64,000 bases of DNA from Escherichia phage FEC19: the sequence record MH816966; one strand, written 5' to 3'. Numbering within the stretch: position 1 is the stretch's first letter; every line of letters begins with the position of its first letter. The notes under the pieces were generated by a model, which saw only the letters and a list, made by a program, of their open reading frames with translations, searched no databases and had not been told where the DNA came from. Of the stretch, positions 392 through 59,012 are shown in pieces. Position numbers and translations under genes: made by a program.

Positions 392-1018
392 ATGGTTAGC
401 TTAAATCGCTTTTCTACTAGCGGCGACGTTATCGCAACTAAGACCGCCGACCTCGTTGCATTTTATAATGCAAATTCCGGCTCTAAGCCGATTAAGAAAT
501 TTGCGGACCGGCGGACCGCCGAGACTCGCGTAATCGCGCTAATCGAGTCCTTAAACGCGCTCGATGAGCCGTCCAACGAATCGCCCATCCCCGACGCGAA
601 GTCGCGTGAGGAAGTGTCCAGCGATGTAAAAACGCATAAGGCGCGTGCGGTCGTTAAAAAGGCCGAGCCGACTCAGGAAGAACTCGACGCGATGACCGAC
701 GAAGAGTATGAAGCATTCGTTAAAAGCGGCCTAAACGATAGTGCAAATTGCGTAGTGCAAAATGGAACTCCTTCCCATCGCCGTTCGAATAGCGAAGGTA
801 TTGCAAAAAGTTGGGATAATAAGGAAGTGGCGCAAAAGCGTCTCACCCGTAACGGCGTCATGGTCGAGGGAGTAGGCGAGTTCAAATCGGTCCGCGTAGC
901 GTTCGCCGCGCTGGGATTACCGGATAGCAAGCACATTCGCTTCCGCATGAAACTTAAGGAAGCTGGACGCTTGAACTTTGAGTTCGGCAACAAGTCCTAC
1001 ACCTTCCAGATCATCTAA
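392..1018 (+). CDS. hypothetical protein
   Basis: 208-aa ORF with AGGAG RBS at 379-383; contains two ATAGTGCAAAT-type motif copies in frame. Confidence 0.5.
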   Translation: MVSLNRFSTSGDVIATKTADLVAFYNANSGSKPIKKFADRRTAETRVIALIESLNALDEPSNESPIPDAKSREEVSSDVKTHKARAVVKKAEPTQEELDAMTDEEYEAFVKSGLNDSANCVVQNGTPSHRRSNSEGIAKSWDNKEVAQKRLTRNGVMVEGVGEFKSVRVAFAALGLPDSKHIRFRMKLKEAGRLNFEFGNKSYTFQII

Positions 1019-1023
1019 TCGAA

Positions 1024-1046
1024 TGGCGGCCCTTCGGGGTCGCTTT
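1024..1046 (+). terminator. stem-loop (TTCG loop) followed by T-run, putative intrinsic terminator after ORF 392..1018
   Basis: ggcccttcggggtc hairpin then gcttttc. Confidence 0.45.
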
Positions 1047-1068
1047 TCATAGTGCAAATTGGTGGCTT

Positions 1069-1332
1069 ATGAATACGCTTATTCTTATCGCTACGTTGTC
1101 CATCGGAAGCGGTCGCACCTTATCCCTTTACGACCATAGTGCAAATTGCGTTTACCCAACGCGCGTTGCGGCGATAGTTAATAGTGCAAATCGAATGCTA
1201 TTCGAGACTTGTTGGCGGGTTGATAACGAGAAAGGACGCATCGTCTTAGGTTATAGTGCAAATCTGCTGGTGGAGTCGTTCGACTGGACGGCTGAAGGTC
1301 GTAAATTGTTACGTAAAGTGACTAAAAGATGA
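1069..1332 (+). CDS. questionable ORF overlapping the motif array (three in-frame copies encode H/N/Y-S-A-N)
   Basis: 87-aa ORF; the DNA-level identity of the repeats suggests the region may be non-coding. Confidence 0.2.
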   Translation: MNTLILIATLSIGSGRTLSLYDHSANCVYPTRVAAIVNSANRMLFETCWRVDNEKGRIVLGYSANLLVESFDWTAEGRKLLRKVTKR

Positions 1333-1391
1333 CTTATAATAATACACTTTCTAACGCGTTTATGGTTGCAACCTTCCCAGTCGTATTACCG

Positions 1392-1431
1392 ATGGCCCTA
1401 GAAGTGGAGAAAACGTGTTCTAGGGCCATTT
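1392..1431. terminator. perfect 10-bp inverted repeat hairpin (ggccctagaa / ttctagggcc) between converging units, T-run on plus side
   Basis: Inverted repeat read directly; followed by attttat. Confidence 0.5.
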
Positions 1432-1446
1432 TATAGTGCAAATTGG

Positions 1447-1920
1447 CTAGTGGCGGGAGAATTGCTCACCCTCTTTGGCCGCCTCTCCAAAATCCTTGTA
1501 GAAATCATCCATGGAACGGCCCATTTTACTATTGCCGTTTTCATCAATCATTGTGATGCCGTAGATGATATTCAGTTCACGAATGGCATTAAGCTTGGCT
1601 GACGCCGCGACTTCTGGATCACGCACAAGCTTCACTAAATTGTGGATGGAACTCTTTACGCTCCACAATTCTTTCAATGGCATCTCTTCCATACGCTTTT
1701 TGTAGCGCATCTTGTAGTACGGATTGCGCTGAGTGCAGAGGATTCGCTGGCCAGTGTAGTTATCGGTCGCAACCTCCATGCCAAATACTAGTGCAAAAGC
1801 TGCGCGCATGTCATGTCCCTGAATAACAAGGTCAATGAACTCATCGAATAACGCCTGATTATGCTCTGCAAATCGTGGGTCTTCAAAGTCTTCAGGCATT
1901 GCTACATAATCTTGACTCAT
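1447..1920 (-). CDS. hypothetical protein (start moved to internal Met MSQDYV)
   Basis: ORF 1447..2115 trimmed; sigma70-like promoter (TTGAAT / TGTATAAT) at ~1965-1995 lies inside the longer ORF. Confidence 0.5.
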   Translation of the reverse strand: MSQDYVAMPEDFEDPRFAEHNQALFDEFIDLVIQGHDMRAAFALVFGMEVATDNYTGQRILCTQRNPYYKMRYKKRMEEMPLKELWSVKSSIHNLVKLVRDPEVAASAKLNAIRELNIIYGITMIDENGNSKMGRSMDDFYKDFGEAAKEGEQFSRH

Positions 1921-2139
1921 AGTGCAAATCCCATAGTGCAAATTAATAGTGTGAATTATACAATGATTGAACATTATATTCAAGTGCAGATTGATGTTCA
2001 AATTGGCTGTAAACGTACATAAATCATAGTGCTGAATGAATATCGGACCGTGGTGCGTGGTGTACTGTTTGATACGTATAAAAGAAATCCATCCCTTTCG
2101 CCGCTTGTTATGCAAATCAATGACTTAGCCGCAGCTGGC

Positions 2140-2450
2140 TGGTTGAAGCGTATCATGACGTATCATCCGTATCGCCGCAAGTCTTTGTTTTTATTTATAT
2201 CTTACGGATAATACGTATAAATATAAGTTTAGTATAAGTATGAGGATGTAGAAAAAAATTAATTTAAATTAATTCAAAATGGAGTTAATTGTTTTTTTCA
2301 AAGTTGTATAAAGTATAGCGGCGACGCGTATCATCCGTATCATCCGTAAGATGTACCACTGAACCCAGTCGCGGCGCACCATAGAAGTGTGTGGAGTGAA
2401 CTACGGATAGGTCCAAATCTTACGTCATTATACGCTTAAATTCTATGCGT
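2140..2450. repeat. composite intergenic element copy 1: multiple TACGGATGA/TCATCCGTA 9-mers in both orientations, AT-rich palindromic core, GCGTATAATGACGTA box
   Basis: A ~45-bp block (ataaagtat.gcgg..acgcgtatcatccgtatcatccgtaagat) is near-identical to 54420-54468. Confidence 0.8.
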
Positions 2451-2762: not shown

Positions 2763-3215
2763 TTAAAATATAAAATTCTTCACTCCAAGCCTTTTAAATT
2801 CCTTCCTTATCATCATATTAAACTTCTTCAATTTAGTTTTATTCATCCTTAAAGGATTGTAAGTGAGTACCTCTTCTATTACTTCCTTACGCATCTTTGA
2901 GCGCATATTAGTTAAGTAATAATTCTTGAACATATTAATAAGGTGATTGGCTTCCAGCTTAAGCTCAATTACTTCTTCCGATTCATCAAGCTCAAGTAAT
3001 CCTTTTTGCGTAAGAATATCTCTTAATATATTCTGGCACTTCTTGCAATCACCTTTACCTAAAAGCGAATCGATATAATCGCCGCTGACGCGCTCATCAC
3101 CGAAATATGTTGCGCGACCGCAAAGGCTTTGCACTTCTCCTTCGTCAAAGTAATGCGCACGATGGCCCCACTTCGGTATGGCCCAACCAGCGGCGATAAG
3201 CTTGTTACCCATCAC
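2763..3215 (-). CDS. hypothetical early protein
   Basis: 150-aa ORF in tightly packed minus-strand operon. Confidence 0.5.
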   Translation of the reverse strand: MMGNKLIAAGWAIPKWGHRAHYFDEGEVQSLCGRATYFGDERVSGDYIDSLLGKGDCKKCQNILRDILTQKGLLELDESEEVIELKLEANHLINMFKNYYLTNMRSKMRKEVIEEVLTYNPLRMNKTKLKKFNMMIRKEFKRLGVKNFIF

Positions 3216-3637
3216 CCCTCCTTAACGACGCGATAAGCAATGATGTCGCTGCCCTTTAACGCGCCTATATGGCCCCAGTGAAGATGGTCAGAGAGTCTTG
3301 ACAGTACTTTATCTCCTCCATTGCGCAGCTTGTATTCAACCATCTTCCCAGGCACCGGATTATTGCCACCAAACCACACGGTCCACGCTTCCTCCTTCGG
3401 CGCATCAACGTCCACGCCTATAGTAGCAACAACGTCATGCAACTGCTTAACGAGCGCCGATGCATCACGGACCTGCGAGCGTAATGCAACCAACTCGCGT
3501 TGCGCTTCACTGTATTTCGCTTCCAGCGCGGCGTAGTCCTCATATGCAACAAAACGTCCTTCGTGACTTTCTGGAACAGGAGTGATGTCGAAATCTTCTG
3601 TCGCCACATCGTATGTCAGGTCATAACGTTGTATCAT
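3212..3637 (-). CDS. hypothetical early protein; C-terminal domain paralogous to 4841..5341
   Basis: Shared C-terminal W.GG.NPVPGK...IIAYRVV motif. Confidence 0.55.
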   Translation of the reverse strand: MIQRYDLTYDVATEDFDITPVPESHEGRFVAYEDYAALEAKYSEAQRELVALRSQVRDASALVKQLHDVVATIGVDVDAPKEEAWTVWFGGNNPVPGKMVEYKLRNGGDKVLSRLSDHLHWGHIGALKGSDIIAYRVVKEG

Positions 3638-4503: not shown

Positions 4504-4841
4504 TTGACCTTCTCCAATTGGAATCTTGCTTCTGGAAAGCCTGCGACAAACATGTCACGGCCCTCGACATCACGCTTCACGAACCAACGCATTCCGCTGA
4601 CTACCGTGAAGACAATTTGCCTTCCATCAATAATAAGTCCTTTTGCCTCATAAAGCAAATAAGTCTGACCGACTTTGAAGCTTAACATATCCTTGCTTGT
4701 GCTGGTGCACTTGAGCCGCCACTGGGTGAGATTTGATTCGCTTGCTTCGATGTCAACAACCTTACCGCGCAGCGACGATGTGCGCTGAAGCTCTTGCATT
4801 TGCTCGTCGAACGTGAGTTCACGGCCTTCTTGCTCTTCCAT
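4500..4841 (-). CDS. hypothetical early protein
   Basis: 113-aa ORF. Confidence 0.5.
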   Translation of the reverse strand: MEEQEGRELTFDEQMQELQRTSSLRGKVVDIEASESNLTQWRLKCTSTSKDMLSFKVGQTYLLYEAKGLIIDGRQIVFTVVSGMRWFVKRDVEGRDMFVAGFPEARFQLEKVK

Positions 4842-5341
4842 TATTCCTCCACGACGCGATAAGCAATGATGTCATAAACGCTTCCGTTGTGCTGCCACAG
4901 CCATCCTTCTGAATTGGATGAATAAGAAGACTTCTCTTCATTCCTCCACATCAACATGACCTTCTTACCAGGCACCGGATTCTTGCCGCCAGCCCATTCA
5001 ATCCAACCTTCATGAGATTCTTCGGGCTTCTTCAAGTGCTCATGCTTCTCACCGATGTGGGCGACAGGTTGACGGCTTCCGTAATAGAATGCCAACGCAA
5101 CGTCGTAGGATGGATGGGTGTTGGATAAGCAAATGTCATCACACCAAAGCTCCATGGTGCGCGACTTAAGCGTCATCATATTAGTATACCACTCGATGGT
5201 GTAGTGGTCGTTAAGGTTGCCGACAATATAGAAGTTGCGGCAAAAGTGCGCAGCGTCATCCGACTTCTCGCGGCTATAGCTTCTGATTGCGCCTGCCTTT
5301 ACAGCCATTTCCAATACTGCTTCGAGTTGTTCGATTTTCAT
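4841..5341 (-). CDS. hypothetical early protein; C-terminal domain paralogous to 3212..3637
   Basis: C-terminus WAGGKNPVPGKKV...DIIAYRVVEE. Confidence 0.55.
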   Translation of the reverse strand: MKIEQLEAVLEMAVKAGAIRSYSREKSDDAAHFCRNFYIVGNLNDHYTIEWYTNMMTLKSRTMELWCDDICLSNTHPSYDVALAFYYGSRQPVAHIGEKHEHLKKPEESHEGWIEWAGGKNPVPGKKVMLMWRNEEKSSYSSNSEGWLWQHNGSVYDIIAYRVVEE

Positions 5342-5583
5342 TTCTTTACTCCTAGTTCAATTTGATAGCCGATTGACAATTCATTTTCGCCGATGTTGAA
5401 TGCATCAACGGGCTGCGACATCACCGCCTTTAAATATACCTTCTTGCGCCGCTTTGCCTTGTACAAACAACGGTCGCCGCTGCGGTTGTAGATGTTAAGC
5501 CAGGTGCGCTTACTGATCTTATAAGGCACATGCGGCTTGATGAATAATAAACGGGCCTTAAGATTGGATGTCATAGTATTCAC
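5338..5583 (-). CDS. hypothetical early protein (basic)
   Basis: 81-aa ORF. Confidence 0.4.
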   Translation of the reverse strand: MNTMTSNLKARLLFIKPHVPYKISKRTWLNIYNRSGDRCLYKAKRRKKVYLKAVMSQPVDAFNIGENELSIGYQIELGVKK

Positions 5584-5882
5584 TTCCCTCCAAACGTTGC
5601 AACACGGATGTCGCGACGCGAAAAAGTCAGAACAGTGTCAAGGCTGCCAGCACAGGTTATGAATATATCGTCTGCAACAAGGTCATACCCGCCGACGCAA
5701 AGAATAAATGTGTCATCGCTATTCTTTAATAGCATGATTGCTGCAACACCGTCCTTTTTATTCTTAAAGAAGAATACTGGCTCACCGCCTTCTTGCGTCT
5801 CCTTGAACTCTTTAATTGCACCACAGTTCACGGCTTCTTGCAAAGCATTCAAAACCTTTTTCTTCATTGCTTCGTTACTCAT
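5580..5882 (-). CDS. hypothetical early protein (start at internal Met MSNEAM)
   Basis: AAAGGAGA RBS 7 nt upstream of ATG at 5880-5882; the longer ORF would overlap the promoter. Confidence 0.5.
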   Translation of the reverse strand: MSNEAMKKKVLNALQEAVNCGAIKEFKETQEGGEPVFFFKNKKDGVAAIMLLKNSDDTFILCVGGYDLVADDIFITCAGSLDTVLTFSRRDIRVATFGGK

Positions 5883-5910
5883 AATCAATTCTCCTTTGCT
5901 TGATGAACTA

Positions 5911-5957
5911 AGTATAATACAGGCAAATAAAAAGGCAAGCATTTAGCTCACCTTTTT
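5911..5957 (-). promoter_or_regulatory. terminator-promoter cassette copy A: hairpin plus U-run after gene 5961..6221, overlapping sigma70-like promoter (TTGCCT-16-TATACT)
   Basis: 28-bp core aaaaggcaagcatttagctcaccttttt identical to 7470-7497. Confidence 0.6.
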
Positions 5958-5960
5958 GAA

Positions 5961-6221
5961 TTAAATATTCTTCGCCTCTTCGTGGAGGCCGACCGACCTT
6001 AGTTTTCGTCGCAAGTAAGCTTTCTTTTCACTCTCCCGCCCGGCTGGAGTCACGCGCCAGCGTAATGTGTTCTCCAGATTCTTGCGTCGGTTGTGCTTGT
6101 CGAGTAGCTCTACCAGTGCCTTTGCGTCGTCGAGTGTTAATGCCACGGGCCGCGACCCATTAACGGCTTGTCGAAGCTTCCGCGCGGCAACGGCTAACTT
6201 AGTCATCGGACCTTTGTTCAC
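5961..6221 (-). CDS. hypothetical early protein (basic)
   Basis: 86-aa ORF. Confidence 0.5.
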   Translation of the reverse strand: MNKGPMTKLAVAARKLRQAVNGSRPVALTLDDAKALVELLDKHNRRKNLENTLRWRVTPAGRESEKKAYLRRKLRSVGLHEEAKNI

Positions 6222-6613
6222 GGCAACTCCTTATTCATAGGCGTGATAGACAACACCTTTACGTCTGTGATGTCACGGTTGTATTCGCGCTTGATTTGTA
6301 GAATCTGGGATTGGATGCGCGCGATAAAGTGCCACGTGATGCCTTCCTTAACGTTAATCCAGGCCGCAAGCTGAATTGAATCGATTTCACTTCTCAATGT
6401 CATCGGTCTGTAAGCAGCACTTTGTGCACCATAAGCAGGCTGTGTATCGTAAGCTGAATACTTGAATGACACCAAGAACATTCTTTCTTCAAGCTGACTC
6501 TCGCTATTAGGATTCTTATCACAATTAGCCATGTGTCGCAAGAACTCTTCATGCGGAAGATGCATCACATCGTGACAATACGGACAACGTTTCATTCTCA
6601 TTTTACACCTCAT
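6218..6613 (-). CDS. hypothetical Cys/His zinc-finger-like protein, paralog of 6603..6887
   Basis: N-terminal CPYCHDVMHLPHEEFLRHMANC motif. Confidence 0.5.
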   Translation of the reverse strand: MRCKMRMKRCPYCHDVMHLPHEEFLRHMANCDKNPNSESQLEERMFLVSFKYSAYDTQPAYGAQSAAYRPMTLRSEIDSIQLAAWINVKEGITWHFIARIQSQILQIKREYNRDITDVKVLSITPMNKELP

Positions 6614-6887
6614 GCAAGAAAGACAAAGATTTGATGCAGACTATTTCTTTTCCAGATACTTCCTTTATTGTATCCAGCAGGCTTTCATACGCCTTTTTGG
6701 TGATCACCATTTCTTTCGTGGTAACGATTCCTGTTGCGCCTGAGCCGTCGTCTGCTTCCGCGTGATAATGATAATAGTAACGCGTCGAATTTTCAGGATT
6801 AGCTTCACAAACGTTAACGTGATGTAAATATTCTTCAACAGGAAGTCGCATAGTTAACAAGCAATGTGGGCAGCGTTGCACCTTCAT
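6603..6887 (-). CDS. hypothetical Cys/His zinc-finger-like protein, paralog of 6218..6613
   Basis: N-terminal RCPHCLLTMRLPVEEYLHHVNVCE motif. Confidence 0.5.
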   Translation of the reverse strand: MKVQRCPHCLLTMRLPVEEYLHHVNVCEANPENSTRYYYHYHAEADDGSGATGIVTTKEMVITKKAYESLLDTIKEVSGKEIVCIKSLSFLHEV

Positions 6888-7120
6888 TTTGCATACTCCA
6901 TAGCATATTGCTGCAGCTTAAACGCAGCCTTTTGTAATTGTTTGTGACGTTCAAATAACGTCTCACGCTTTTCAGCAGGGCAATCGGCGCGAAGCATTGT
7001 TATGGCAACGCTTGACATAGCATTCAATAAAAACTGAAAACGAGACACCATTCTCAGCTCATTACGCTTGTTGAAAGACAGCTTACCCAGCGCGGCATTC
7101 ATAATTGCACCTCGACACAC
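6884..7120 (-). CDS. hypothetical early protein
   Basis: 78-aa ORF. Confidence 0.4.
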   Translation of the reverse strand: MCRGAIMNAALGKLSFNKRNELRMVSRFQFLLNAMSSVAITMLRADCPAEKRETLFERHKQLQKAAFKLQQYAMEYAK

Positions 7121-7416
7121 GATTCACTAGCCTTGAATCCCCAGCCTTCCAGACCGACTTCGCCGCAGTAACGCGCCATTGCACGCTCATCCAAGAACCA
7201 ACCGTGATATTGCTCTATGTACTTTGGTTTTTCTGAATAACAGTGAATGACTCCGTCGTCATCAATGGCCACGTAACGCGTGCCAGGCGCGACTGGTACA
7301 ACTACGTTTGGGTGGACGATTGGCCAAGGCTTGATGTGTACGGCTGTGTCTAACTTAACGTTTGGCACCCTTGAAAGGTCTTTGTAAGCGCCCTCGTCCA
7401 TTCCTAAGTAAATCAT
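7099..7416 (-). CDS. hypothetical early protein
   Basis: 105-aa ORF immediately downstream of cassette copy B. Confidence 0.5.
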   Translation of the reverse strand: MIYLGMDEGAYKDLSRVPNVKLDTAVHIKPWPIVHPNVVVPVAPGTRYVAIDDDGVIHCYSEKPKYIEQYHGWFLDERAMARYCGEVGLEGWGFKASESCVEVQL

Positions 7417-7448
7417 AATTCACCTCGCTTGTTAGTCTTGATGAAAAG

Positions 7449-7497
7449 AGTATAAGTATTGATAAAAGAAAAGGCAAGCATTTAGCTCACCTTTTTG
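7449..7497 (-). promoter_or_regulatory. terminator-promoter cassette copy B (TTGCCT-17-TATACT)
   Basis: Same hairpin core as copy A, directly after stop of gene 7502..7834. Confidence 0.6.
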
Positions 7498-7501
7498 ATA
7501 T

Positions 7502-7834
7502 TCATTTTACATAGTGGAGTAGGTCAATCTCTATCTCGTGCCTTGTCCTTGTTATCTTTGTATCACCCGTCCTGTGGGAGACTTGATGGAAGAAAGAGTC
7601 TTTGTGAGCGCATCGTTCAAACATCACGCTGGCAAATCTGCAGCCGCATATTGCATCAAGCTTTGCTCCGTTAGACAAAAGGTTGAATGTCAATACAGTG
7701 TTATCCATCCTTGCATTTTGCTTGATGCAGGACTTTAAGAAGGCGTAAGAATCGGCAAATGATTTGTGCCTTTTACAAATATCTTTAACCTTTTCACGCT
7801 CATGCGCGGCGAGTATCTGATCACGTGTCATCAC
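7502..7834 (-). CDS. hypothetical early protein
   Basis: 110-aa ORF. Confidence 0.5.
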   Translation of the reverse strand: MMTRDQILAAHEREKVKDICKRHKSFADSYAFLKSCIKQNARMDNTVLTFNLLSNGAKLDAICGCRFASVMFERCAHKDSFFHQVSHRTGDTKITRTRHEIEIDLLHYVK

Positions 7835-8070
7835 TGCACCTCTGTTATTCCGGTAATGCGAACGATTACGGTGTCATCTAAATTGAACTGCTGCCGCGCG
7901 ACGCGCTTGATGTCGTCCTTAAGGTCCGCAATCAACTCCCTTGTTAACACTGTACGCTCTGAGACGTCATATTGAACGTCAAAGGTATACTCGCCATAAA
8001 ATACCGCGCCATTGGGAAGTTGTACGACATAGAATGCCATGTACATTGCATTGATATAATCTTCCATCAT
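7831..8070 (-). CDS. hypothetical early protein (start trimmed to MMEDY to remove overlap)
   Basis: ATGA-type overlap with upstream stop. Confidence 0.4.
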   Translation of the reverse strand: MMEDYINAMYMAFYVVQLPNGAVFYGEYTFDVQYDVSERTVLTRELIADLKDDIKRVARQQFNLDDTVIVRITGITEVQ

Positions 8071-8414
8071 ACATTCTCCACGGGTCGACGAATGAGTTTG
8101 CGTAATCCTTCGGGCCAGACCTTCTTGATGACGGCCTTTGCTGGGCTGGATGAAAGCTTCTTCAGCTTCAATAGGACACATCCTTCATCATCGTTCGGTT
8201 GCACCTGGATAACGACTCGCGCTTGTCGGTCGATGACCATGACATCCCCAATGCGAATGTCTTTTACCAACACGCCCATCTCCTTCGTGCCGGATACGCC
8301 ATTGATGTGATCAAAACCTTTTCGCAGCGGTTTCATTATTTCTTCTCCTGCCATTTCTCTGACACGCTTCTTAATCTCTGCGCCAAACAACACTTCGTCT
8401 TTAACATGAGCCAT
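8067..8414 (-). CDS. hypothetical early protein (start uncertain)
   Basis: ORF 8067..8492 trimmed to limit overlap with 8401..8880. Confidence 0.35.
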   Translation of the reverse strand: MAHVKDEVLFGAEIKKRVREMAGEEIMKPLRKGFDHINGVSGTKEMGVLVKDIRIGDVMVIDRQARVVIQVQPNDDEGCVLLKLKKLSSSPAKAVIKKVWPEGLRKLIRRPVENV

Positions 8415-8880
8415 GGTCGAGTACCTTATAGAATTTAGTGGTGAATCGCTCATCGCCATAGTAGCGATACTTGCCGCCGCCAGTGTTATCAAACCTTACC
8501 CATTGAATTAAAGTCTGGTCAGCGTCGTGCGACACGTAAATCACCCGGCCATTAACAGGAATTGCGCCCTCTTCCGCGTCCTTGCTTATGATTGAATCGC
8601 CGTTCTTGATGTCAAATATGTCAATCGGCTTAAGGCGCGGCTTTTTATCAACATAAGTTTGAATAGGAACTCTTACGCAACGTGATTGATGATGGACAAG
8701 TCTTTCAACATGCCTTTTGGTTGGCGGTAAAATCTCGAATGACTCAACGCCTGCAAACTCGCTGTCGATAAATTTATTTATTTTCATCCTTAATGGAATT
8801 GGGACGTTACATTGACTTGTTGCTGCTAAAATAATTGCTGCTTCTGTTTTACTTAACATTAAAGGGCGATGAATGATCAT
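8401..8880 (-). CDS. hypothetical early protein
   Basis: 159-aa ORF. Confidence 0.5.
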   Translation of the reverse strand: MIIHRPLMLSKTEAAIILAATSQCNVPIPLRMKINKFIDSEFAGVESFEILPPTKRHVERLVHHQSRCVRVPIQTYVDKKPRLKPIDIFDIKNGDSIISKDAEEGAIPVNGRVIYVSHDADQTLIQWVRFDNTGGGKYRYYGDERFTTKFYKVLDHGSC

Positions 8881-9038
8881 AATTAACCTCTGATTTGTGA
8901 CACAAAACGTTTATAATGTTCTTTGGCTAAGACGCGTGCGCGCTCTTTCGTATGGCCGCTGGCTTCAAGTACGCGACGAAGCTGCTTGATTGCGTCTGCT
9001 TTACTAACCTTGTTATCGTTAAACTGAAATTTATTCAT
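8881..9038 (-). CDS. small basic hypothetical protein (51 aa, not in ORF track)
   Basis: Fills the gap exactly, with start and stop overlapping the neighbouring genes. Confidence 0.35.
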
Positions 9039-9748: not shown

Positions 9749-9977
9749 GGTTGAATCTACCCTCTGTCAATATCCGGTCGTGGATTACTATACCAGTACA
9801 GCGCAGGCGGTTGGCATTGCTTCGCGCCTTTGCTGCTTGATGAGGATTGAACAAGCCAAACAAACTAGCCTTAAAGGCAAACTGGTAATATTTGATTAAA
9901 GTACTAAGTGCTAACTCAATCCTGTCTAAATTAATCATAATATCACCTCGTCAGAAAAGCAAATATTTTGATGATAA

Positions 9978-10625
9978 TTATCCTGTGGCCTGCATATTGC
10001 GTACATACTTCTGCTCTAATGAATAGATGAAGTCGGCGACCGTCAATCCTTTTGTGTGCCACTCATACATTGTGTAGCCTGTATTCAGGAAATAGCCGCG
10101 CACCTTGTCCATTGCTTCAGCTTCCTCCATGGAAGCCATCAGCGCGGCGACGTTATCATAAGAAGGCACAAATCCCTTCTTGCGTAGCGCATTGCGCAAA
10201 TCTTTAGTTCTGAATCCAATCTTGCACAGGTCATCACGGCCCGTTGAAGATGCAACCTTCGGCAGTGCAAGGAACTCTTTGAGGAACATCGAGATGTTCA
10301 GGTCGCCTGCATCATCAAGCTTCTGGAGTCGGTTGCGACCGCGACCCTTGAATTCACTTGCACGAGGGTGAGCGCCAAAACAATGCGCCCCTTCCAATTT
10401 AGGGTCGATGATCATCAAATCTTTGCCTACGCGCAATTCAACGTAGTAAAGGTATGTCTCATCGACAAGCTTCGTGCGTTTACAGGTGATGGAGTCCTTA
10501 TCGTACCCAAAACCACGCAACACGGTTGAAATCATCCGGTTCATTTCTTCTCCATGAACGTCACTCTCTTTGTTCAGTTCACCGAGATGTTGAAAGAATT
10601 TAGCGATGTTGATTGCTTTATTCAT
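9978..10625 (-). CDS. hypothetical protein
   Basis: 215-aa ORF; stop overlaps start of upstream NTPase gene. Confidence 0.5.
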   Translation of the reverse strand: MNKAINIAKFFQHLGELNKESDVHGEEMNRMISTVLRGFGYDKDSITCKRTKLVDETYLYYVELRVGKDLMIIDPKLEGAHCFGAHPRASEFKGRGRNRLQKLDDAGDLNISMFLKEFLALPKVASSTGRDDLCKIGFRTKDLRNALRKKGFVPSYDNVAALMASMEEAEAMDKVRGYFLNTGYTMYEWHTKGLTVADFIYSLEQKYVRNMQATG

Positions 10626-12295
10626 CAGAATTCATCCTTATCTCTTCCTAAAGAACGTTTGCGTTCAATAACCTTCTTCAAGAATTCAATATCTTCAGGG
10701 TCAGACTCGTCGCGGATAAGATACGCTAAGATAGTCATCAAATCAGAAATGTATTCCCCTGCTTCATTCTTAATCAGCGGCGTAAAGTAACCACGCTGGT
10801 TGCGATAGGTTGCAGGCTCAAATCCAAGCTTCGACATGTGCGGCGCAAGGGTACGTGAGAAAGGCGACTTGCCGCACTTAGCTCTGAATCCCATAGCGAT
10901 TGCACCACTGGTGATGTGCCAGCGTCCGCTGTGATGTCGGTCATAAGGCGCGGTGATGACGACTTCAACAAGGTCGTTGTCGACCATCTCGTCACGGATA
11001 ACGCCGCGAGCGCGTTCCATTTCGTTCTTGCTGAACTCAGTAAGCATACGAGATGTCTCACCGACAAAGGCGTTATAACCTGCTTCGCCGTGCTTCTCCA
11101 TCCACGCAGCGCACTCAGCCATCAGCTGCCAAACGTCTTCTTTCAAAGTTGAAAGGTCAGCTTGGAAGTCTTTAGACCAGTTCGGTTGCCCGTCCTTGTC
11201 GGCGAGTTGGCCAACAAAGATAGGATACACACGACGGTTGCCTGTATCGTCACGTTGCATGCCTGCGTATTCGTTGCCGTCCATGATAGCAATCCACTGG
11301 CGTGGTTTAACCTGCGTGTCTTCAAATTTGAAGTCCAGGTCATCTTCCGTCTTAGTCAGGAATGCTTTCATGTTTTCGATGTCGGCCTTTTTAAAGCCTG
11401 TCATCTCACCAACGTTCGCGATAATTGAGCGACCCGTAATAGCTCGCAAGAACGGGTTGAAGTTCTGCGCGGCCAAGTTCAACGGAATCGGTGTTGCGTG
11501 GCGGTCGTTCATAATAGCTTCGCAAAGTAGCTTACTAAAATAACTCTTCCCTGCGTTCTGGCCGCCGATGAGCGCAATGGAGATTGGCGCTTGACAGCCA
11601 GGGTTGGTCAGGCGGTTATAGAGCGATAGCCAAAAATACACACCGATTTGTCGGTTTAACTCTGTATCGAACGGTCGGAATAGCTCGATAAGGTATTTCT
11701 CGATGCGCGCAGTGCCGTCCCATTCAGGAAGCTTCTTGTAGAAGAAGTCCATCAGGTCGTCGCGCTGATAACGCATGGCCCATTCCTTATAGGATTGAGC
11801 GACCTGACGTGAGTTTGGGTTGGACAGACCTGCTGCGTCGACAGCGGCAACTATCTCTGTGACTTCCAATGTACGGTCGGTGAATGTTTCGCCGCGATGG
11901 TCGACTAAGCGTCCACGAAAAGTATCTTTGTGAGGGAATGGGACAATGCCGCTTCCCTTATCAAACAACGCGTCGAAAACCGCATAACGGTTCATGTCAC
12001 TCGTCCGGTCCGCCTGAAGAACAAAATCATCTTTCGTCGGTTTGTAGTGAGGGAACTTGATTACCTGAAGTGAGGCGAGCAAACGTGCTCTTTCAACCAA
12101 GTCTTCTTCGCCGTAGCACTCCATGCGCTCTGCATCTTTCTCAACAGCCTTATGCTGGAGGCTGATTTTAGCTCTGGTGCCTTGCTGCTCTGCCGCTTGC
12201 ATCTCTTCTGACACACCAGCGTCTTGAATTTCGTCAAAGATTGCACCAAATTCATCACCTGTATCCTCTGGAAGATTGTCATGTTCAATTGACAT
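10625..12295 (-). CDS. VirE/D5-like P-loop NTPase, putative replication helicase
   Basis: Walker A IALIGGQNAGKSYFSKLL; size and layout like phage/plasmid primase-associated helicases. Confidence 0.6.
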   Translation of the reverse strand: MSIEHDNLPEDTGDEFGAIFDEIQDAGVSEEMQAAEQQGTRAKISLQHKAVEKDAERMECYGEEDLVERARLLASLQVIKFPHYKPTKDDFVLQADRTSDMNRYAVFDALFDKGSGIVPFPHKDTFRGRLVDHRGETFTDRTLEVTEIVAAVDAAGLSNPNSRQVAQSYKEWAMRYQRDDLMDFFYKKLPEWDGTARIEKYLIELFRPFDTELNRQIGVYFWLSLYNRLTNPGCQAPISIALIGGQNAGKSYFSKLLCEAIMNDRHATPIPLNLAAQNFNPFLRAITGRSIIANVGEMTGFKKADIENMKAFLTKTEDDLDFKFEDTQVKPRQWIAIMDGNEYAGMQRDDTGNRRVYPIFVGQLADKDGQPNWSKDFQADLSTLKEDVWQLMAECAAWMEKHGEAGYNAFVGETSRMLTEFSKNEMERARGVIRDEMVDNDLVEVVITAPYDRHHSGRWHITSGAIAMGFRAKCGKSPFSRTLAPHMSKLGFEPATYRNQRGYFTPLIKNEAGEYISDLMTILAYLIRDESDPEDIEFLKKVIERKRSLGRDKDEF

Positions 12296-12349
12296 TTAAT
12301 CCTCCTGATACGGCTTTGTTATATTGTTGCATGGATATATCCTTTCAGG

Positions 12350-12381
12350 GTGCGGTAAATAAACGCCAGAAATCTGGCGTT
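12350..12381 (-). terminator. hairpin (aacgccag / ctggcgtt) with modest U-run
   Basis: Perfect 8-bp inverted repeat with aaat loop. Confidence 0.4.
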
Positions 12382-12431
12382 GTATATTAATATAGTAAAA
12401 CTCAGTTTAAAGCAATATAACTGGTGAACTA

Positions 12432-20710: not shown

Positions 20711-20775
20711 TTTACTTGTGCGTTTCGATGAGTTATATTTATCTCATCGAAACGAAGTCCAAAAAGGATAAATAA

Positions 20776-27628: not shown

Positions 27629-27702
27629 TATCAAAAATAATTTGACTTGTCACGGAAGATGAGTCATAATTACTTCATCGAAACGAAATAGAGGAATACA
27701 AA

Positions 27703-31601: not shown

Positions 31602-31676
31602 GACACTAGATAAATAATTGGTGCGGATAATCTATCGCGTTGTTTTATAGAATTTAATATACAGTGTATACATAAA

Positions 31677-31701
31677 GCCGGAAATCTCCGGCTTTTCTTT
31701 T
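31677..31701 (+). terminator. intrinsic terminator after ligase
   Basis: gccgga aatc tccggc then ttttctttt. Confidence 0.65.
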
Positions 31702-31777
31702 ATTTACCTTTCGCCTTATTTACTTTCAAAACCTTCGGCCTATACTATTAATATTCGTAATCAAAAGGTGAATTATA

Positions 31778-54180: not shown

Positions 54181-54224
54181 ACAATAATTATGGTTTGAAT
54201 ATGTATAACAACCGATATAGCCGC

Positions 54225-54530
54225 GCCTTAATTAGTGTGATACGGATGATACGGATAAAATGAGGCGTATTTTTATCCGTATCGGTGTATAAGCCGCGCT
54301 ATCACTGGTGTGCTACGGATGATACGGATGATACGGATACTTTTCATATATAAGAGTTTATAAAAAAAATAAAATTAAATTAGATATATAATTTTAAATT
54401 AATTTATTTGAATTCCTATAAAGTATCGCGGCAACGCGTATCATCCGTATCATCCGTAAGATTCTTTTGAAAACAACTACTTACTTGATACGGATGATAC
54501 GTCATTATACGCGTAAAATCCTGCGGCAAT
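54225..54530. repeat. composite intergenic element copy 2 (TACGGATGA 9-mers, 13-bp perfect inverted repeat, AT-rich core, GCGTATAATGACGTA box)
   Basis: Homologous to 2140-2450; triple tandem tacggatga at ~54282-54308. Confidence 0.8.
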
Positions 54531-58850: not shown

Positions 58851-58956
58851 TGTTAACGCCACCTGACAGTGAAAGGGAATCAATCTATATTATAAATATT
58901 CATGTGTTTGTAAGCAAATGATATGTATGGTGATCATAAATAGTTCATAAAATATT

Positions 58957-58985
58957 TTGCTTTTGTATCATTTTGAGTTATATTT
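58957..58985 (+). promoter_or_regulatory. sigma70-like promoter (TTGCTT-17-TATATT) for opposite-strand cassette
   Basis: AT-rich gap; AAAGGAGA RBS before ATG 59013. Confidence 0.45.
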
Positions 58986-59012
58986 TAGTTAACCAAACGA
59001 AAGGAGATTGAA

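What the first reader, a model, noticed from the sequence alone, without database searches (positions are those of the whole stretch)
5911..7497. Duplicated terminator-promoter cassette in the early operon
A 28-bp core (aaaaggcaagcatttagctcaccttttt) occurs at 5929-5957 and 7470-7497, each time immediately after a gene stop. On the minus strand it folds into a 9-bp-stem hairpin followed by a U-run, and its 3' arm supplies the -35 (TTGCCT) of a promoter with TATACT -10. This is a compact element that terminates and re-initiates transcription, a likely way to tune early gene dosage.
Basis: seen in the sequence. Interest (0 to 1): 0.45.

Follow-up and report, generated by a model that had tools for sequence, protein, structure and literature searches.

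The report
Twin terminator-promoter cassettes in a coliphage
Two near-identical ~80-base gaps in a coliphage's block of small unknown genes each look, from sequence alone, like a transcription stop hairpin fused to a restart promoter; this design is already described in T4-like phages, so the finding is real but fairly ordinary.

Summary
The repeat is real. The window is a Wifcevirus (ECML-117/WFC-like E. coli myophage), and the genes here are on the minus strand. Each copy fills a whole intergenic gap: stop codon, an 11-12 bp A-tract/U-tract hairpin whose 3' arm holds a -35 (TTGCCT), a 16-17 nt spacer, TATACT, 5 nt, CATCAAG, Shine-Dalgarno, ATG. These are the only gaps longer than 3 nt among about 24 packed ORFan genes. 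All 27 GenBank relatives have exactly two copies. Across 16 aligned genomes the -35, -10 and CATCAAG never vary and the stems almost never do. Changes fall in the loop, spacer, discriminator and 5'UTR. Gene insertions and replacements abut the cassette edges. One stray 943-bp contig carries a single chimeric cassette and lacks the five genes in between. The best reading is a composite leaky terminator plus sigma-70 promoter that also acts as a recombination linker, the PeSL design known from T4-like phages. The hairpins are already annotated as putative terminators in the WFC/WFH records. No transcript data exist, so function and "early" timing are inferred.

The parts
5883..5960 (-). Cassette 1: the whole 78-nt intergenic gap, from the stop of gene 5961..6221 to the ATG of gene 5580..5882
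   Evidence: 11 of 78 columns vary across 15 genomes, against 43 of 87 third-codon columns in the upstream gene.
5930..5957 (-). Hairpin 1: AAAAAGGUGAGC-UAAAU-GCUUGCCUUUU. The 5' arm is 5956-5946, the loop 5945-5941, the 3' arm 5940-5930. U-tract UUUUUAUUU. Predicted intrinsic terminator or attenuator.
   Evidence: Exact repeat. Folds at -13.3 to -14.7 kcal/mol, z -4.1 to -5.4, against -7.6 for the plus strand. Terminator score d = +11.4. The homologous site is annotated as a terminator in WFC.
5933..5938 (-). -35 hexamer TTGCCT of promoter 1, inside the 3' arm of the hairpin
   Evidence: TTGCCT, 16 nt, TATACT. Invariant in 16 genomes.
5911..5916 (-). -10 hexamer TATACT of promoter 1
   Evidence: Invariant in 16 genomes.
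5899..5905 (-). CATCAAG start-site motif. The predicted +1 is A5904, 7 nt after the -10.
   Evidence: Shared exactly by both copies and invariant in 16 genomes. The same TTATACTnnnTTCATCAAG core sits 16-18 nt after a near-consensus TTGACA in 9 of 46 unrelated viral contexts. A related TCATCGA context occurs at two of the three + strand promoter-like sites (20.7 kb and 27.6 kb) in the window.
5891..5896 (-). Shine-Dalgarno AAGGAG for the ATG at 5882-5880
7417..7501 (-). Cassette 2: the whole 85-nt intergenic gap, from the stop of gene 7502..7834 to the ATG of gene 7099..7416
   Evidence: 8 of 85 columns vary across 16 genomes, against 49 of 70 third-codon columns in the upstream gene.
7469..7496 (-). 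Hairpin 2, identical in sequence to hairpin 1. The loop is 7484-7480. U-tract UUUUCUUUUAU.
   Evidence: Terminator score d = +8.7. Annotated as a terminator in WFC and WFH.
7472..7477 (-). -35 hexamer TTGCCT of promoter 2
   Evidence: TTGCCT, 17 nt, TATACT. Invariant.
7449..7454 (-). -10 hexamer TATACT of promoter 2
7437..7443 (-). CATCAAG start-site motif. The predicted +1 is A7442.
7421..7426 (-). Shine-Dalgarno GAGGTG for the ATG at 7416-7414
5961..7416 (-). Five-gene ORFan module bracketed by the two cassettes (7099..7416, 6884..7102, 6603..6887, 6218..6601, 5961..6221). Its length varies among relatives: about 1.25, 1.5 or 2.7 kb between the cassettes.
   Evidence: There are no informative Pfam or PHROG hits. 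The module is absent from contig L097.
2727..2748 (-). Stronger GC-rich terminator that closes the leftward gene cluster. This is context, not part of the repeat.

Best explanation
Each copy is a complete intergenic regulatory cassette of a Wifcevirus phage. It reads stop codon, hairpin, promoter, ribosome-binding site, start codon.

Proposed mechanism:
- On mRNA coming from upstream, the 11-12 bp A-tract/U-tract hairpin acts as an intrinsic terminator of moderate, probably leaky, strength. It ends or attenuates that transcript about 7-9 nt into the U-run.
- On the DNA, the 3' arm of the same inverted repeat supplies the -35 (TTGCCT) of a host sigma-70-type promoter with -10 TATACT. This promoter restarts transcription at the A of CATCAAG (about 5904 and 7442).
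- The long leftward block of ORFan genes is thereby cut into three insulated, separately driven units.
- Because one sequence serves both as RNA stem and as -35, it is held almost invariant.

Secondary role: the conserved cassettes serve as homology patches where genes are inserted, swapped or deleted.

What is shown: the anatomy, the strand asymmetry, the conservation pattern, the junctions and the chimera. What is inferred: termination, initiation, host RNA polymerase usage and early timing.
For: 1. Repeat and fold. The exact repeat and the strand-specific fold are confirmed. The two G.U pairs pair only on the coding strand, which folds at -13.3 against -7.6 kcal/mol.

2. Position. The cassettes are the only gaps longer than 3 nt among about 24 overlapping or abutting genes from 9938 to 2763. 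The cluster ends at a separate GC-rich terminator.

3. Distribution. All 27 GenBank Wifcevirus records have exactly two copies.

4. Conservation in 16 aligned genomes. The -35, -10, CATCAAG and Shine-Dalgarno never change, and the stems change only in SP13 (one substitution) plus minor A-tract differences at the stem base. Substitutions fall in the loop (TAAAT, TATAT, TAAGT), the -35/-10 spacer, the discriminator and the 5'UTR. Variable columns are 9% and 14%, against 49-70% at third-codon positions of the flanking genes.

5. Divergence between the two copies. The spacer is fully diverged, with only 5 of 13 positions matching on my own reading of the alignment. The hairpin, -10 and CATCAAG are identical between copies. 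This fits selection on those blocks.

6. Terminator features. My implementation of a d'Aubenton-Carafa-type score is positive for both (11.4 and 8.7). It is below the operon-end terminator (17-33). WFC and WFH annotators independently called both hairpins terminators. Near-identical A-tract-GGAGAGC-loop-GCTCTCC-U-tract hairpins sit between convergent genes in Asteriusvirus jumbo phages.

7. Promoter features. The TTATACTnnnTTCATCAAG core follows a 5/6 or 6/6 TTGACA at 16-18 nt in 9 of 46 unrelated IMG/VR contexts. About 0.6 would be expected by my estimate. Two of the three + strand promoter-like sites at 20.7, 27.6 and 58.9 kb share TCATCGA.

8. Recombination.
- A 195-nt ORFan is inserted inside the 5' arm in WFC, Bas100 and SP13. 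It is flanked by a roughly 20-nt direct repeat (AAATGAATATCAAAAAGGTGA, exact in WFC; one or a few differences in Bas100 and SP13). F13 also carries this gene, but its junction was not examined.
- That ORFan has homologues in unrelated siphophages.
- A 249-nt gene is inserted at the SD-ATG edge in EC150 and CWP003.
- Three genes are inserted just upstream of cassette 1 in RCIP0319.
- At least four different genes follow cassette 1.
- Contig L097 has one chimeric cassette, cassette-2 type up to TATACTC and cassette-1 type from AGTTCATCAAG. It lacks the intervening module.

9. Match to published PeSLs. The description fits point by point (PMC2839356).
Against: - There are no transcript 5' or 3' end data for any Wifcevirus, so nothing is shown functionally.
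- The promoter match is only 9 of 12 (-35 is 4 of 6). The generic scan finds about as many such sites as in shuffled sequence (33 against 29.6), so the hexamers alone prove nothing.
- The GC core of the stem is only 7 bp with two G.U pairs (-8.7 kcal/mol), so termination may be weak.
- The stems are invariant, so there is no compensatory covariation to prove RNA pairing.
- Mosaic breakpoints occur at most other gene boundaries too. Only 4 of 27 breakpoint clusters lie at the cassettes, so the cassettes are not special hotspots.
- The chimera is one 943-bp contaminant contig in a Xanthomonas pisi draft assembly. It has no read-level check, and the direction of the event (deletion or insertion) is unknown.
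- There are only two copies per genome, against dozens of PeSLs in T4-like phages.
Confidence: 0.7

Rival explanations
1. The inverted repeat is mainly a DNA operator. A dimeric phage or host protein binds the imperfect palindrome AAAGGTGAGC-N5-GCTTGCCTTT, which overlaps the -35, and switches both promoters off (or on) together. The RNA hairpin would be incidental.
For: The palindrome overlaps the -35, the classical operator position. The 28 nt are identical in both copies and nearly invariant in all relatives, beyond what a generic terminator needs.
Against: - The two non-complementary positions are G.U pairs on the coding strand only.
- The stem is bracketed by an A-tract and a U-tract and sits right after stop codons, as terminators do.
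- Sequence invariance is already explained by the double duty of -35 plus pairing.
- The half-site occurs nowhere else in the 64 kb.
- Loop changes are tolerated.
- No candidate binding protein was identified.
Confidence: 0.1
2. Only half of the composite is functional. Either it is just a terminator and the TTGCCT/TATACT match is fortuitous, or it is just a promoter whose upstream inverted repeat does not terminate.
For: Promoter-like hexamers are no more frequent than chance in this genome. The hairpin core is modest at -8.7 kcal/mol. The WFC and WFH annotators called only terminators.
Against: - TATACT, the 5-nt offset and CATCAAG are invariant in 16 genomes and identical between copies, while the spacer between the hairpin and -10 has diverged. 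That is hard to explain without a promoter.
- The same core is paired with consensus -35 boxes in unrelated viral contigs.
- The A-tract/U-tract flanks and the strand-specific G.U pairs are hard to explain without an RNA hairpin.
Confidence: 0.12
3. The region is coding. The ATG in the hairpin loop, preceded by the SD-like 5' arm AAGGTGA, would start a short leader peptide (cassette 2) or an N-terminal extension of the next gene (cassette 1). The hairpin would gate its translation.
For: AAGGTGAGCTAAATG has the form of an RBS plus start codon. The same 5' arm does serve as the RBS of the inserted 195-nt gene in WFC-type genomes. Several relatives are annotated this way (kaset_CDS0079, Bas101_0078, Bas99_0075). 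The loop variants keep ATG or GTG.
Against: - The reading frame is not conserved. Cassette 2 ORFs run from 18 aa to more than 41 aa, and in one genome no stop falls within the stretch examined. These differences come from stop-creating substitutions and 1-nt indels.
- Cassette 1 is out of frame in WFC and RCIP0363.
- Every substitution in the spacer is non-synonymous (Ala to Val, Asp or Thr; Ser to Asn, Thr or Ile; Phe to Ser).
- Transcripts started at the cassette promoter would lack this ATG.
Confidence: 0.04
4. The repeat is a neutral recombination scar or selfish linker, kept identical by gene conversion and with no regulatory role.
For: Cassette edges are recombination junctions, and a chimeric cassette exists.
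Against: The two copies do not evolve in concert. Loop variants occur only in copy 1, and each copy keeps its own spacer across the genus. The pattern of which positions vary matches promoter and terminator logic.
Confidence: 0.04

Closest known systems
PeSLs (promoter-early stem-loops): composite promoter/terminator cassettes of T4-like phages RB49, phi1, T4/PST and KVP40/nt-1 (Arbiol et al. 2010, PMC2839356; Comeau et al. 2014, PMC4122927)
   Same: [quoted passage not shown]
- It has a sigma-70-like -35/-10 and a stem-loop containing G-T pairs. PeSL stem-loops can overlap the -35, which is one of five described subclasses.
- It ends with SD and start codon at the 3' end.
- It lies among ORFans in a variable region.
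- Indels abut the cassettes.
- The chimeric-cassette crossover maps between the -10 and the ATG, as in sequenced PeSL mini-circles.
   Different: - The host phage is a 68-kb Wifcevirus (a Pbunavirus relative), not a T4-like phage.
- There are only two copies per genome instead of dozens.
- The stem is an A/U-flanked GGUGAGC/GCUUGCC rather than the typical GGGG...CCCC.
- There is no sequence homology to published PeSLs.
- Promoter, terminator and mini-circle activities are untested here.
- Breakpoints are not concentrated at the cassettes.
Canonical Rho-independent (intrinsic) terminators, for example the A-tract/U-tract hairpins between convergent genes of Asteriusvirus jumbo coliphages
   Same: A GC-containing stem of 7 bp extended by A-U pairs, a 5-nt loop and a U-rich tail, placed immediately after a stop codon. 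The stem is about 87% identical to those in JNE01 and Ecwhy_1.
   Different: Two stem positions are G.U instead of Watson-Crick. These are the positions that turn GCTCTCC into GCTTGCC, which contains the -35-like TTGCC. A promoter follows at once, and the downstream gene is co-directional rather than convergent.
Morons of lambdoid phages: single genes carried with their own promoter and terminator (as discussed in PMC2839356)
   Same: Transcriptionally insulated accessory genes are bounded by promoter and terminator signals within a phage genome.
   Different: Moron signals are not conserved repeats and are not thought to mediate the recombination. Here the flanking signals are a conserved repeat, and the bracketed unit has five genes.

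Membership tests
PeSL (promoter-early stem-loop) cassettes | [quoted passage not shown] | tested here: met
   Conserved blocks begin at the stop codon (AAATGAATATC...) and end at the ATG.
PeSL (promoter-early stem-loop) cassettes | Contains a sigma-70-like -35/-10 early promoter | tested here: inconclusive
   TTGCCT, 16 or 17 nt, TATACT (9 of 12). The hexamers and start motif are invariant, and the core recurs with consensus -35 boxes elsewhere. Activity and timing were not measured.
PeSL (promoter-early stem-loop) cassettes | Contains a stable stem-loop placed within or next to the promoter, acting as a terminator or attenuator | tested here: inconclusive
   The stem-loop overlaps the -35. 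It folds at -13 to -15 kcal/mol with z about -4 to -5 and has a positive terminator score. Termination itself is not testable here.
PeSL (promoter-early stem-loop) cassettes | Many dispersed copies in hyperplastic ORFan-rich regions | tested here: not met
   The region is ORFan-rich and variable. However, there are exactly two copies per genome in all 27 records.
PeSL (promoter-early stem-loop) cassettes | Recombination between or at cassettes produces insertions, deletions and chimeric cassettes | tested here: met
   Roughly 20-nt direct repeats flank an inserted ORFan. Chimeric cassette in L097. Caveats: this is a single contaminant contig, and junctions are also common at other gene boundaries.
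PeSL (promoter-early stem-loop) cassettes | Resides in a T4-like (Straboviridae) genome, or shows sequence relatedness to described PeSLs | tested here: not met
   The window is a Wifcevirus. The hairpin sequence was found only in Wifcevirus-like DNA, apart from chance or terminator look-alikes.
Intrinsic (Rho-independent) terminator | GC-containing hairpin followed directly by a U-rich tract on the transcribed strand, downstream of a stop codon | tested here: met
   Annotated as such in WFC and WFH.
Intrinsic (Rho-independent) terminator | Transcript 3' ends generated in the U-tract | not testable with these tools
   No RNA data. I found no Wifcevirus transcript-level study in the papers checked.
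Rfam RNA families | A match to any curated covariance model | tested here: not met
   No hit at E <= 1 in 5000-8500.

The most novel reading that the evidence does not exclude
PeSL-type 'plug-and-play' regulatory cassettes may not be confined to T4-like phages.

In Wifcevirus, a two-copy version brackets an excisable five-gene ORFan module and acts as a landing pad for foreign genes. The hairpin's 5' arm (AAGGTGA) doubles as the ribosome-binding site of a captured gene, and the full cassette is regenerated downstream.

The dual-coded hairpin/-35 would then be an integron-like gene-capture site that guarantees both expression and insulation of whatever lands there.
Probability: 0.35. Interest if true: 0.5.

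Novelty: new member of a known kind. Interest (0 to 1): 0.3.

Why it matters
If confirmed, these cassettes define the transcription units of the ORFan (probably host-takeover) region of Wifcevirus. These phages are used against E. coli O157 and are reported to replicate unusually fast.

Confirmation would extend the PeSL concept, so far documented only in T4-like phages in the searchable literature, to an unrelated myovirus lineage.

Practical consequences:
- The cassettes would be natural, insulated insertion sites for engineering these phages.
- They flag mis-annotated ORFs in several GenBank records that start at the ATG in the hairpin loop.

The principle itself, a terminator fused to a promoter, is not new.

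Tried and rejected
- Rfam scan of 5000-8500 at E <= 1 found nothing.
- I looked for distant relatives to obtain stem covariation. Protein-seeded scans of IMG/VR with the two flanking genes returned only close Wifcevirus relatives, plus one short, weak match (19 residues at 58%, L025) that I did not follow. The hairpin pattern in IMG/VR, metagenomes and GTDB genomes also returned only Wifcevirus-like DNA, plus chance or look-alike hits in GC-rich coding regions and a Clostridia terminator. No covariation test was therefore possible, and I built no covariance model.
- The uORF or N-terminal extension reading was rejected on frame and substitution pattern.
- A search for the operator half-site elsewhere in the window found only the four arms themselves.
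- The jumbo-phage BLAST hits are ordinary bidirectional terminators, not homologous cassettes.
- Marine contigs sharing TTATACT...TTCATCAAGCAAAGG are cyanophage-like and unrelated. One search used wrong coordinates and is void. A BLAST of the L045 promoter group found nothing.
- I tested whether the cassettes are special recombination hotspots. Only 4 of 27 breakpoint clusters lie there, and most other gene boundaries also carry breakpoints. The claim is therefore limited to 'cassettes are among the junctions'.
- The conserved 3' end of gene 7502..7834 shows no significant RNA structure (z -0.3) and no convincing promoter.
- The 39-nt gap at 9939-9977 has no convincing -35.
- PHROG and Pfam scans of ten neighbouring proteins gave no functions.
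Full report
**What the window is.** Megablast of 5000-9000 finds 27 phage records, all Wifcevirus-type E. coli/Shigella myophages (ECML-117, WFC, WFH, vB_Eco4M-7, Bas98-101 and others) at 86-92% identity. The genes around the finding are on the minus strand. They form part of a long leftward block that runs from a primase-like gene (10625..12295) through about 24 small genes to 2763.

**The observation.** The 28-mer occurs exactly twice, at 5930-5957 and 7469-7496. No further copies appear with up to three mismatches, and none appear in 100 shuffles.

On the minus strand the core reads AAAAAGGTGAGC-TAAAT-GCTTGCCTTTT. It begins 3 nt after the TAA of gene 5961..6221 and 5 nt after the TGA of gene 7502..7834.

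As RNA it forms an 11-12 bp stem, not 9, with two G.U pairs. The energy is -13.3 kcal/mol for the core and -14.2 to -14.7 with flanks, with z-scores of -3.9 to -5.4. The plus-strand version reaches only -7.6 kcal/mol, because the G.U pairs become A-C mismatches.

The similarity does not stop at the hairpin. Both copies continue, after a diverged 13-14 nt spacer, with TATACT, 5 nt and CATCAAG, then a Shine-Dalgarno and the ATG. TTGCCT in the 3' arm lies 16 or 17 nt before TATACT. The repeated unit is therefore the whole intergenic gap: 5883-5960 (78 nt) and 7417-7501 (85 nt).

**Context.** From 9938 to 2763 every gene junction overlaps or is at most 3 nt apart, except for these two gaps. The cluster ends at a stronger GC-rich terminator at 2748-2727. 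None of ten neighbouring proteins has an informative Pfam or PHROG match. Rfam finds nothing.

**Comparative evidence.** All 27 GenBank relatives hold exactly two copies. The distance between them falls into classes of about 1.25, 1.5 and 2.7 kb. I fetched 15 relatives and aligned both cassettes.
- The -35, the -10, CATCAAG and the Shine-Dalgarno are invariant. The hairpin stems change only in SP13 (one substitution), with minor A-tract differences at the stem base in three other genomes.
- Substitutions fall in the loop (TAAAT, TATAT, TAAGT, in copy 1 only), the -35/-10 spacer, the discriminator and the 5'UTR.
- Variable columns are 8 of 85 (cassette 2) and 11 of 78 (cassette 1). Third-codon columns of the upstream genes vary at 49 of 70 and 43 of 87.
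- Between the two copies the spacer is fully diverged while the three functional blocks are identical. Loop variants are not shared between copies, which argues against homogenisation by gene conversion and for selection.

Because the 3' arm must be both -35 and pairing partner, this double duty explains why the stem is constrained in sequence and not only in structure. It also means there is no covariation to exploit.

**Terminator and promoter plausibility.**
- The WFC and WFH GenBank records already annotate both hairpins as 'putative transcriptional terminator, -10.10'. The method reference in that paper is ARNold.
- A d'Aubenton-Carafa-type score is positive for both copies (11.4 and 8.7). 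It is lower than for the operon-end terminator (17-33), which suggests partial termination. The formula is recalled from memory and uses ViennaRNA energies, so the values are approximate.
- BLAST with the cassette also picks up 38-nt matches in Asteriusvirus jumbo phages. These are A-tract-GGAGAGC-loop-GCTCTCC-U-tract hairpins between convergent genes, which are ordinary terminators. The Wifcevirus 3' arm differs from them at the two positions that create TTGCC.
- The hexamers alone carry no weight as promoter evidence, because such sites are as common as in shuffles.
- The core TTATACTnnnTTCATCAAG, scanned in IMG/VR, follows a 5/6 or 6/6 TTGACA at 16-18 nt in 9 of 46 non-Wifcevirus contexts, belonging to about five families. 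About 0.6 would be expected by my estimate.
- Two of the three + strand promoter-like sites in the window (20.7 and 27.6 kb, not 58.9 kb) share the related start context TCATCGA.
- The predicted starts are A5904 and A7442.

**Recombination.** BLAST breakpoints between the window and 15 relatives cluster at gene boundaries throughout the region. Four of 27 clusters lie at the cassettes, so the cassettes are junctions but not exclusive hotspots. The individual events are informative.
- In WFC, Bas100 and SP13 a 195-nt ORFan sits inside the 5' arm of hairpin 2. It is flanked by a roughly 20-nt direct repeat (AAATGAATATCAAAAAGGTGA, exact in WFC; one or a few differences in the other two). The truncated first copy supplies its ribosome-binding site (AAGGTGAtttATG), and the full cassette follows the insert. 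F13 also carries the gene, but its junction was not examined. This ORFan has homologues in unrelated siphophages ST20 (74% aa) and Yersinia P400 (41%).
- EC150 and CWP003 carry an extra 249-nt gene inserted at the SD-ATG edge of cassette 2.
- RCIP0319 has three extra genes just upstream of cassette 1.
- At least four different genes follow cassette 1.
- The hairpin pattern scan of GTDB genomes returned a 943-bp contig in the Xanthomonas pisi DSM 18956 draft that is plainly Wifcevirus DNA. Its first 556 nt match window 7992..7437 at 93%, and nt 495-943 match 5959..5506 at 80%. It contains one cassette that is cassette-2 type through TTATACTC and cassette-1 type from AGTTCATCAAGCAAAGG, with the five-gene module absent.

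The switch in that contig lies where the copies share only 7-8 nt. An assembler collapsing the 28-nt repeat would not produce it. It is still a single unverified contig, and it could represent either a deletion or the pre-insertion state.

**Comparison with known systems.** The description of PeSLs in RB49 and phi1 runs as follows: stop codon in an AT-rich stretch; sigma-70-like -35/-10; a stem-loop with G-T pairs that may overlap the -35; SD and ATG at the 3' end; association with ORFans and indels; and crossovers between -10 and ATG (PMC2839356; PMC4122927). This matches the present element feature by feature.

The differences are the phage lineage, the copy number (two, not dozens), the stem sequence and the lack of any experimental test. 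In the searchable literature, PeSLs are discussed only for T4-like phages. Wifcevirus papers report no promoter/terminator findings and no transcript-level data.

**Rivals.**
- Operator for a DNA-binding protein. This cannot be excluded, but it is disfavoured by the strand-specific G.U pairs, the A/U flanks and the absence of other half-sites.
- Coding uORF or N-terminal extension starting at the loop ATG, as some relatives are annotated. Non-conserved frames and all-non-synonymous changes contradict it.
- Only half of the composite being functional. The independent conservation of both halves disfavours it.

**Verdict.** The element is a PeSL-like composite terminator/promoter cassette in a new phage lineage. 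Part of it (the terminator) is already annotated in public records. Interest is modest.

Noticed in passing
window 738-1942: At least six copies of ATAGTGCAAAT(T) (families D3, D9 and D13), spread over 1.2 kb near the left end. The same stretch holds several near-consensus sigma-70 promoter matches on the minus strand at 2001-1955. This may be an operator-like, iteron-like or strong-early-promoter region.
   Followed up: no
window 2287-2352 and 54397-54462; also 54219-54338: A 66-nt repeat (85% identity) containing GTATCATCCGTATCATCCGTAAGAT, next to AAATTAATTT repeats. Oppositely oriented ATACGGATGATACGGAT copies lie at 54219-54338. Function unknown. They could relate to genome ends, packaging or a regulator site.
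   Followed up: no
window 20711-20760, 27642-27690, 58955-59005 (+ strand): Three intergenic sites share AATAnTTT(A/G)CTT...TGAGTyATAwTT and end in AAACGAA; two of them read ...TCATCGAAACGAA. They lie upstream of + strand genes. This looks like a second promoter family whose start context resembles the cassettes' TCATCAAG.
   Followed up: partly
window 31674-31746 (+ strand): A terminator-like hairpin AAAGCCGGAAATCTCCGGCTTT plus T-run is followed 24 nt later by TTTACT, 16 nt, TATACT. This is a non-overlapping terminator-then-promoter gap.
   Followed up: no
window 12296-12431 (- strand): A 136-nt gap before the primase-like gene holds the hairpin AACGCCAGAUUUCUGGCGUU. Its U-tract is poor, and the terminator score is negative.
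   Followed up: partly
window 3212-3637 and 4841-5341: Two genes in the ORFan block share 53-nt and 29-nt stretches at 77-93% identity, so they are partial paralogues (D7 and D14).
   Followed up: no
relatives L002, L005, L006, L009, L014 (kaset_CDS0079, Bas99_0075, Bas101_0078, AV128 WPK38449, Bas98_0076): Public annotations start ORFs at the ATG in the hairpin loop, or call roughly 30-aa ORFs across cassette 2. Frames and lengths are not conserved, and the substitutions are all non-synonymous, so these are probably mis-calls.
   Followed up: yes
L097 (NZ_JPLE01000312.1, Xanthomonas pisi DSM 18956, 943 bp): This contig is 93% identical to the window upstream of cassette 2. It is coliphage (Wifcevirus-like) DNA inside a plant-pathogen draft assembly, almost certainly contamination.
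   Followed up: partly
L057, L032, L041, L053 (IMG/VR contigs, cyanophage-like by BLAST): These contigs carry TTATACTATGTTCATCAAGCAAAGGGGAGG, the same -10/start/SD string as cassette 1. It is preceded by an 11-bp hairpin that shows compensatory changes between contigs. This may be convergent or a very widespread promoter core.
   Followed up: partly
L001, L007, L008 (WFC, Bas100, SP13), gene just upstream of cassette 2; also present in F13: The 64-aa ORFan inserted at cassette 2 has homologues in the siphophages Escherichia ST20 (74% aa) and Yersinia vB_YenS_P400 (41%). It has therefore moved between unrelated phage lineages.
   Followed up: partly
window ~7505-7590 (3' end of gene 7502..7834): The last ~85 nt of this gene are much more conserved across relatives than the rest of the gene. 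No significant RNA structure (z -0.3) and no convincing promoter were found. This may be hitch-hiking with cassette 2.
   Followed up: partly
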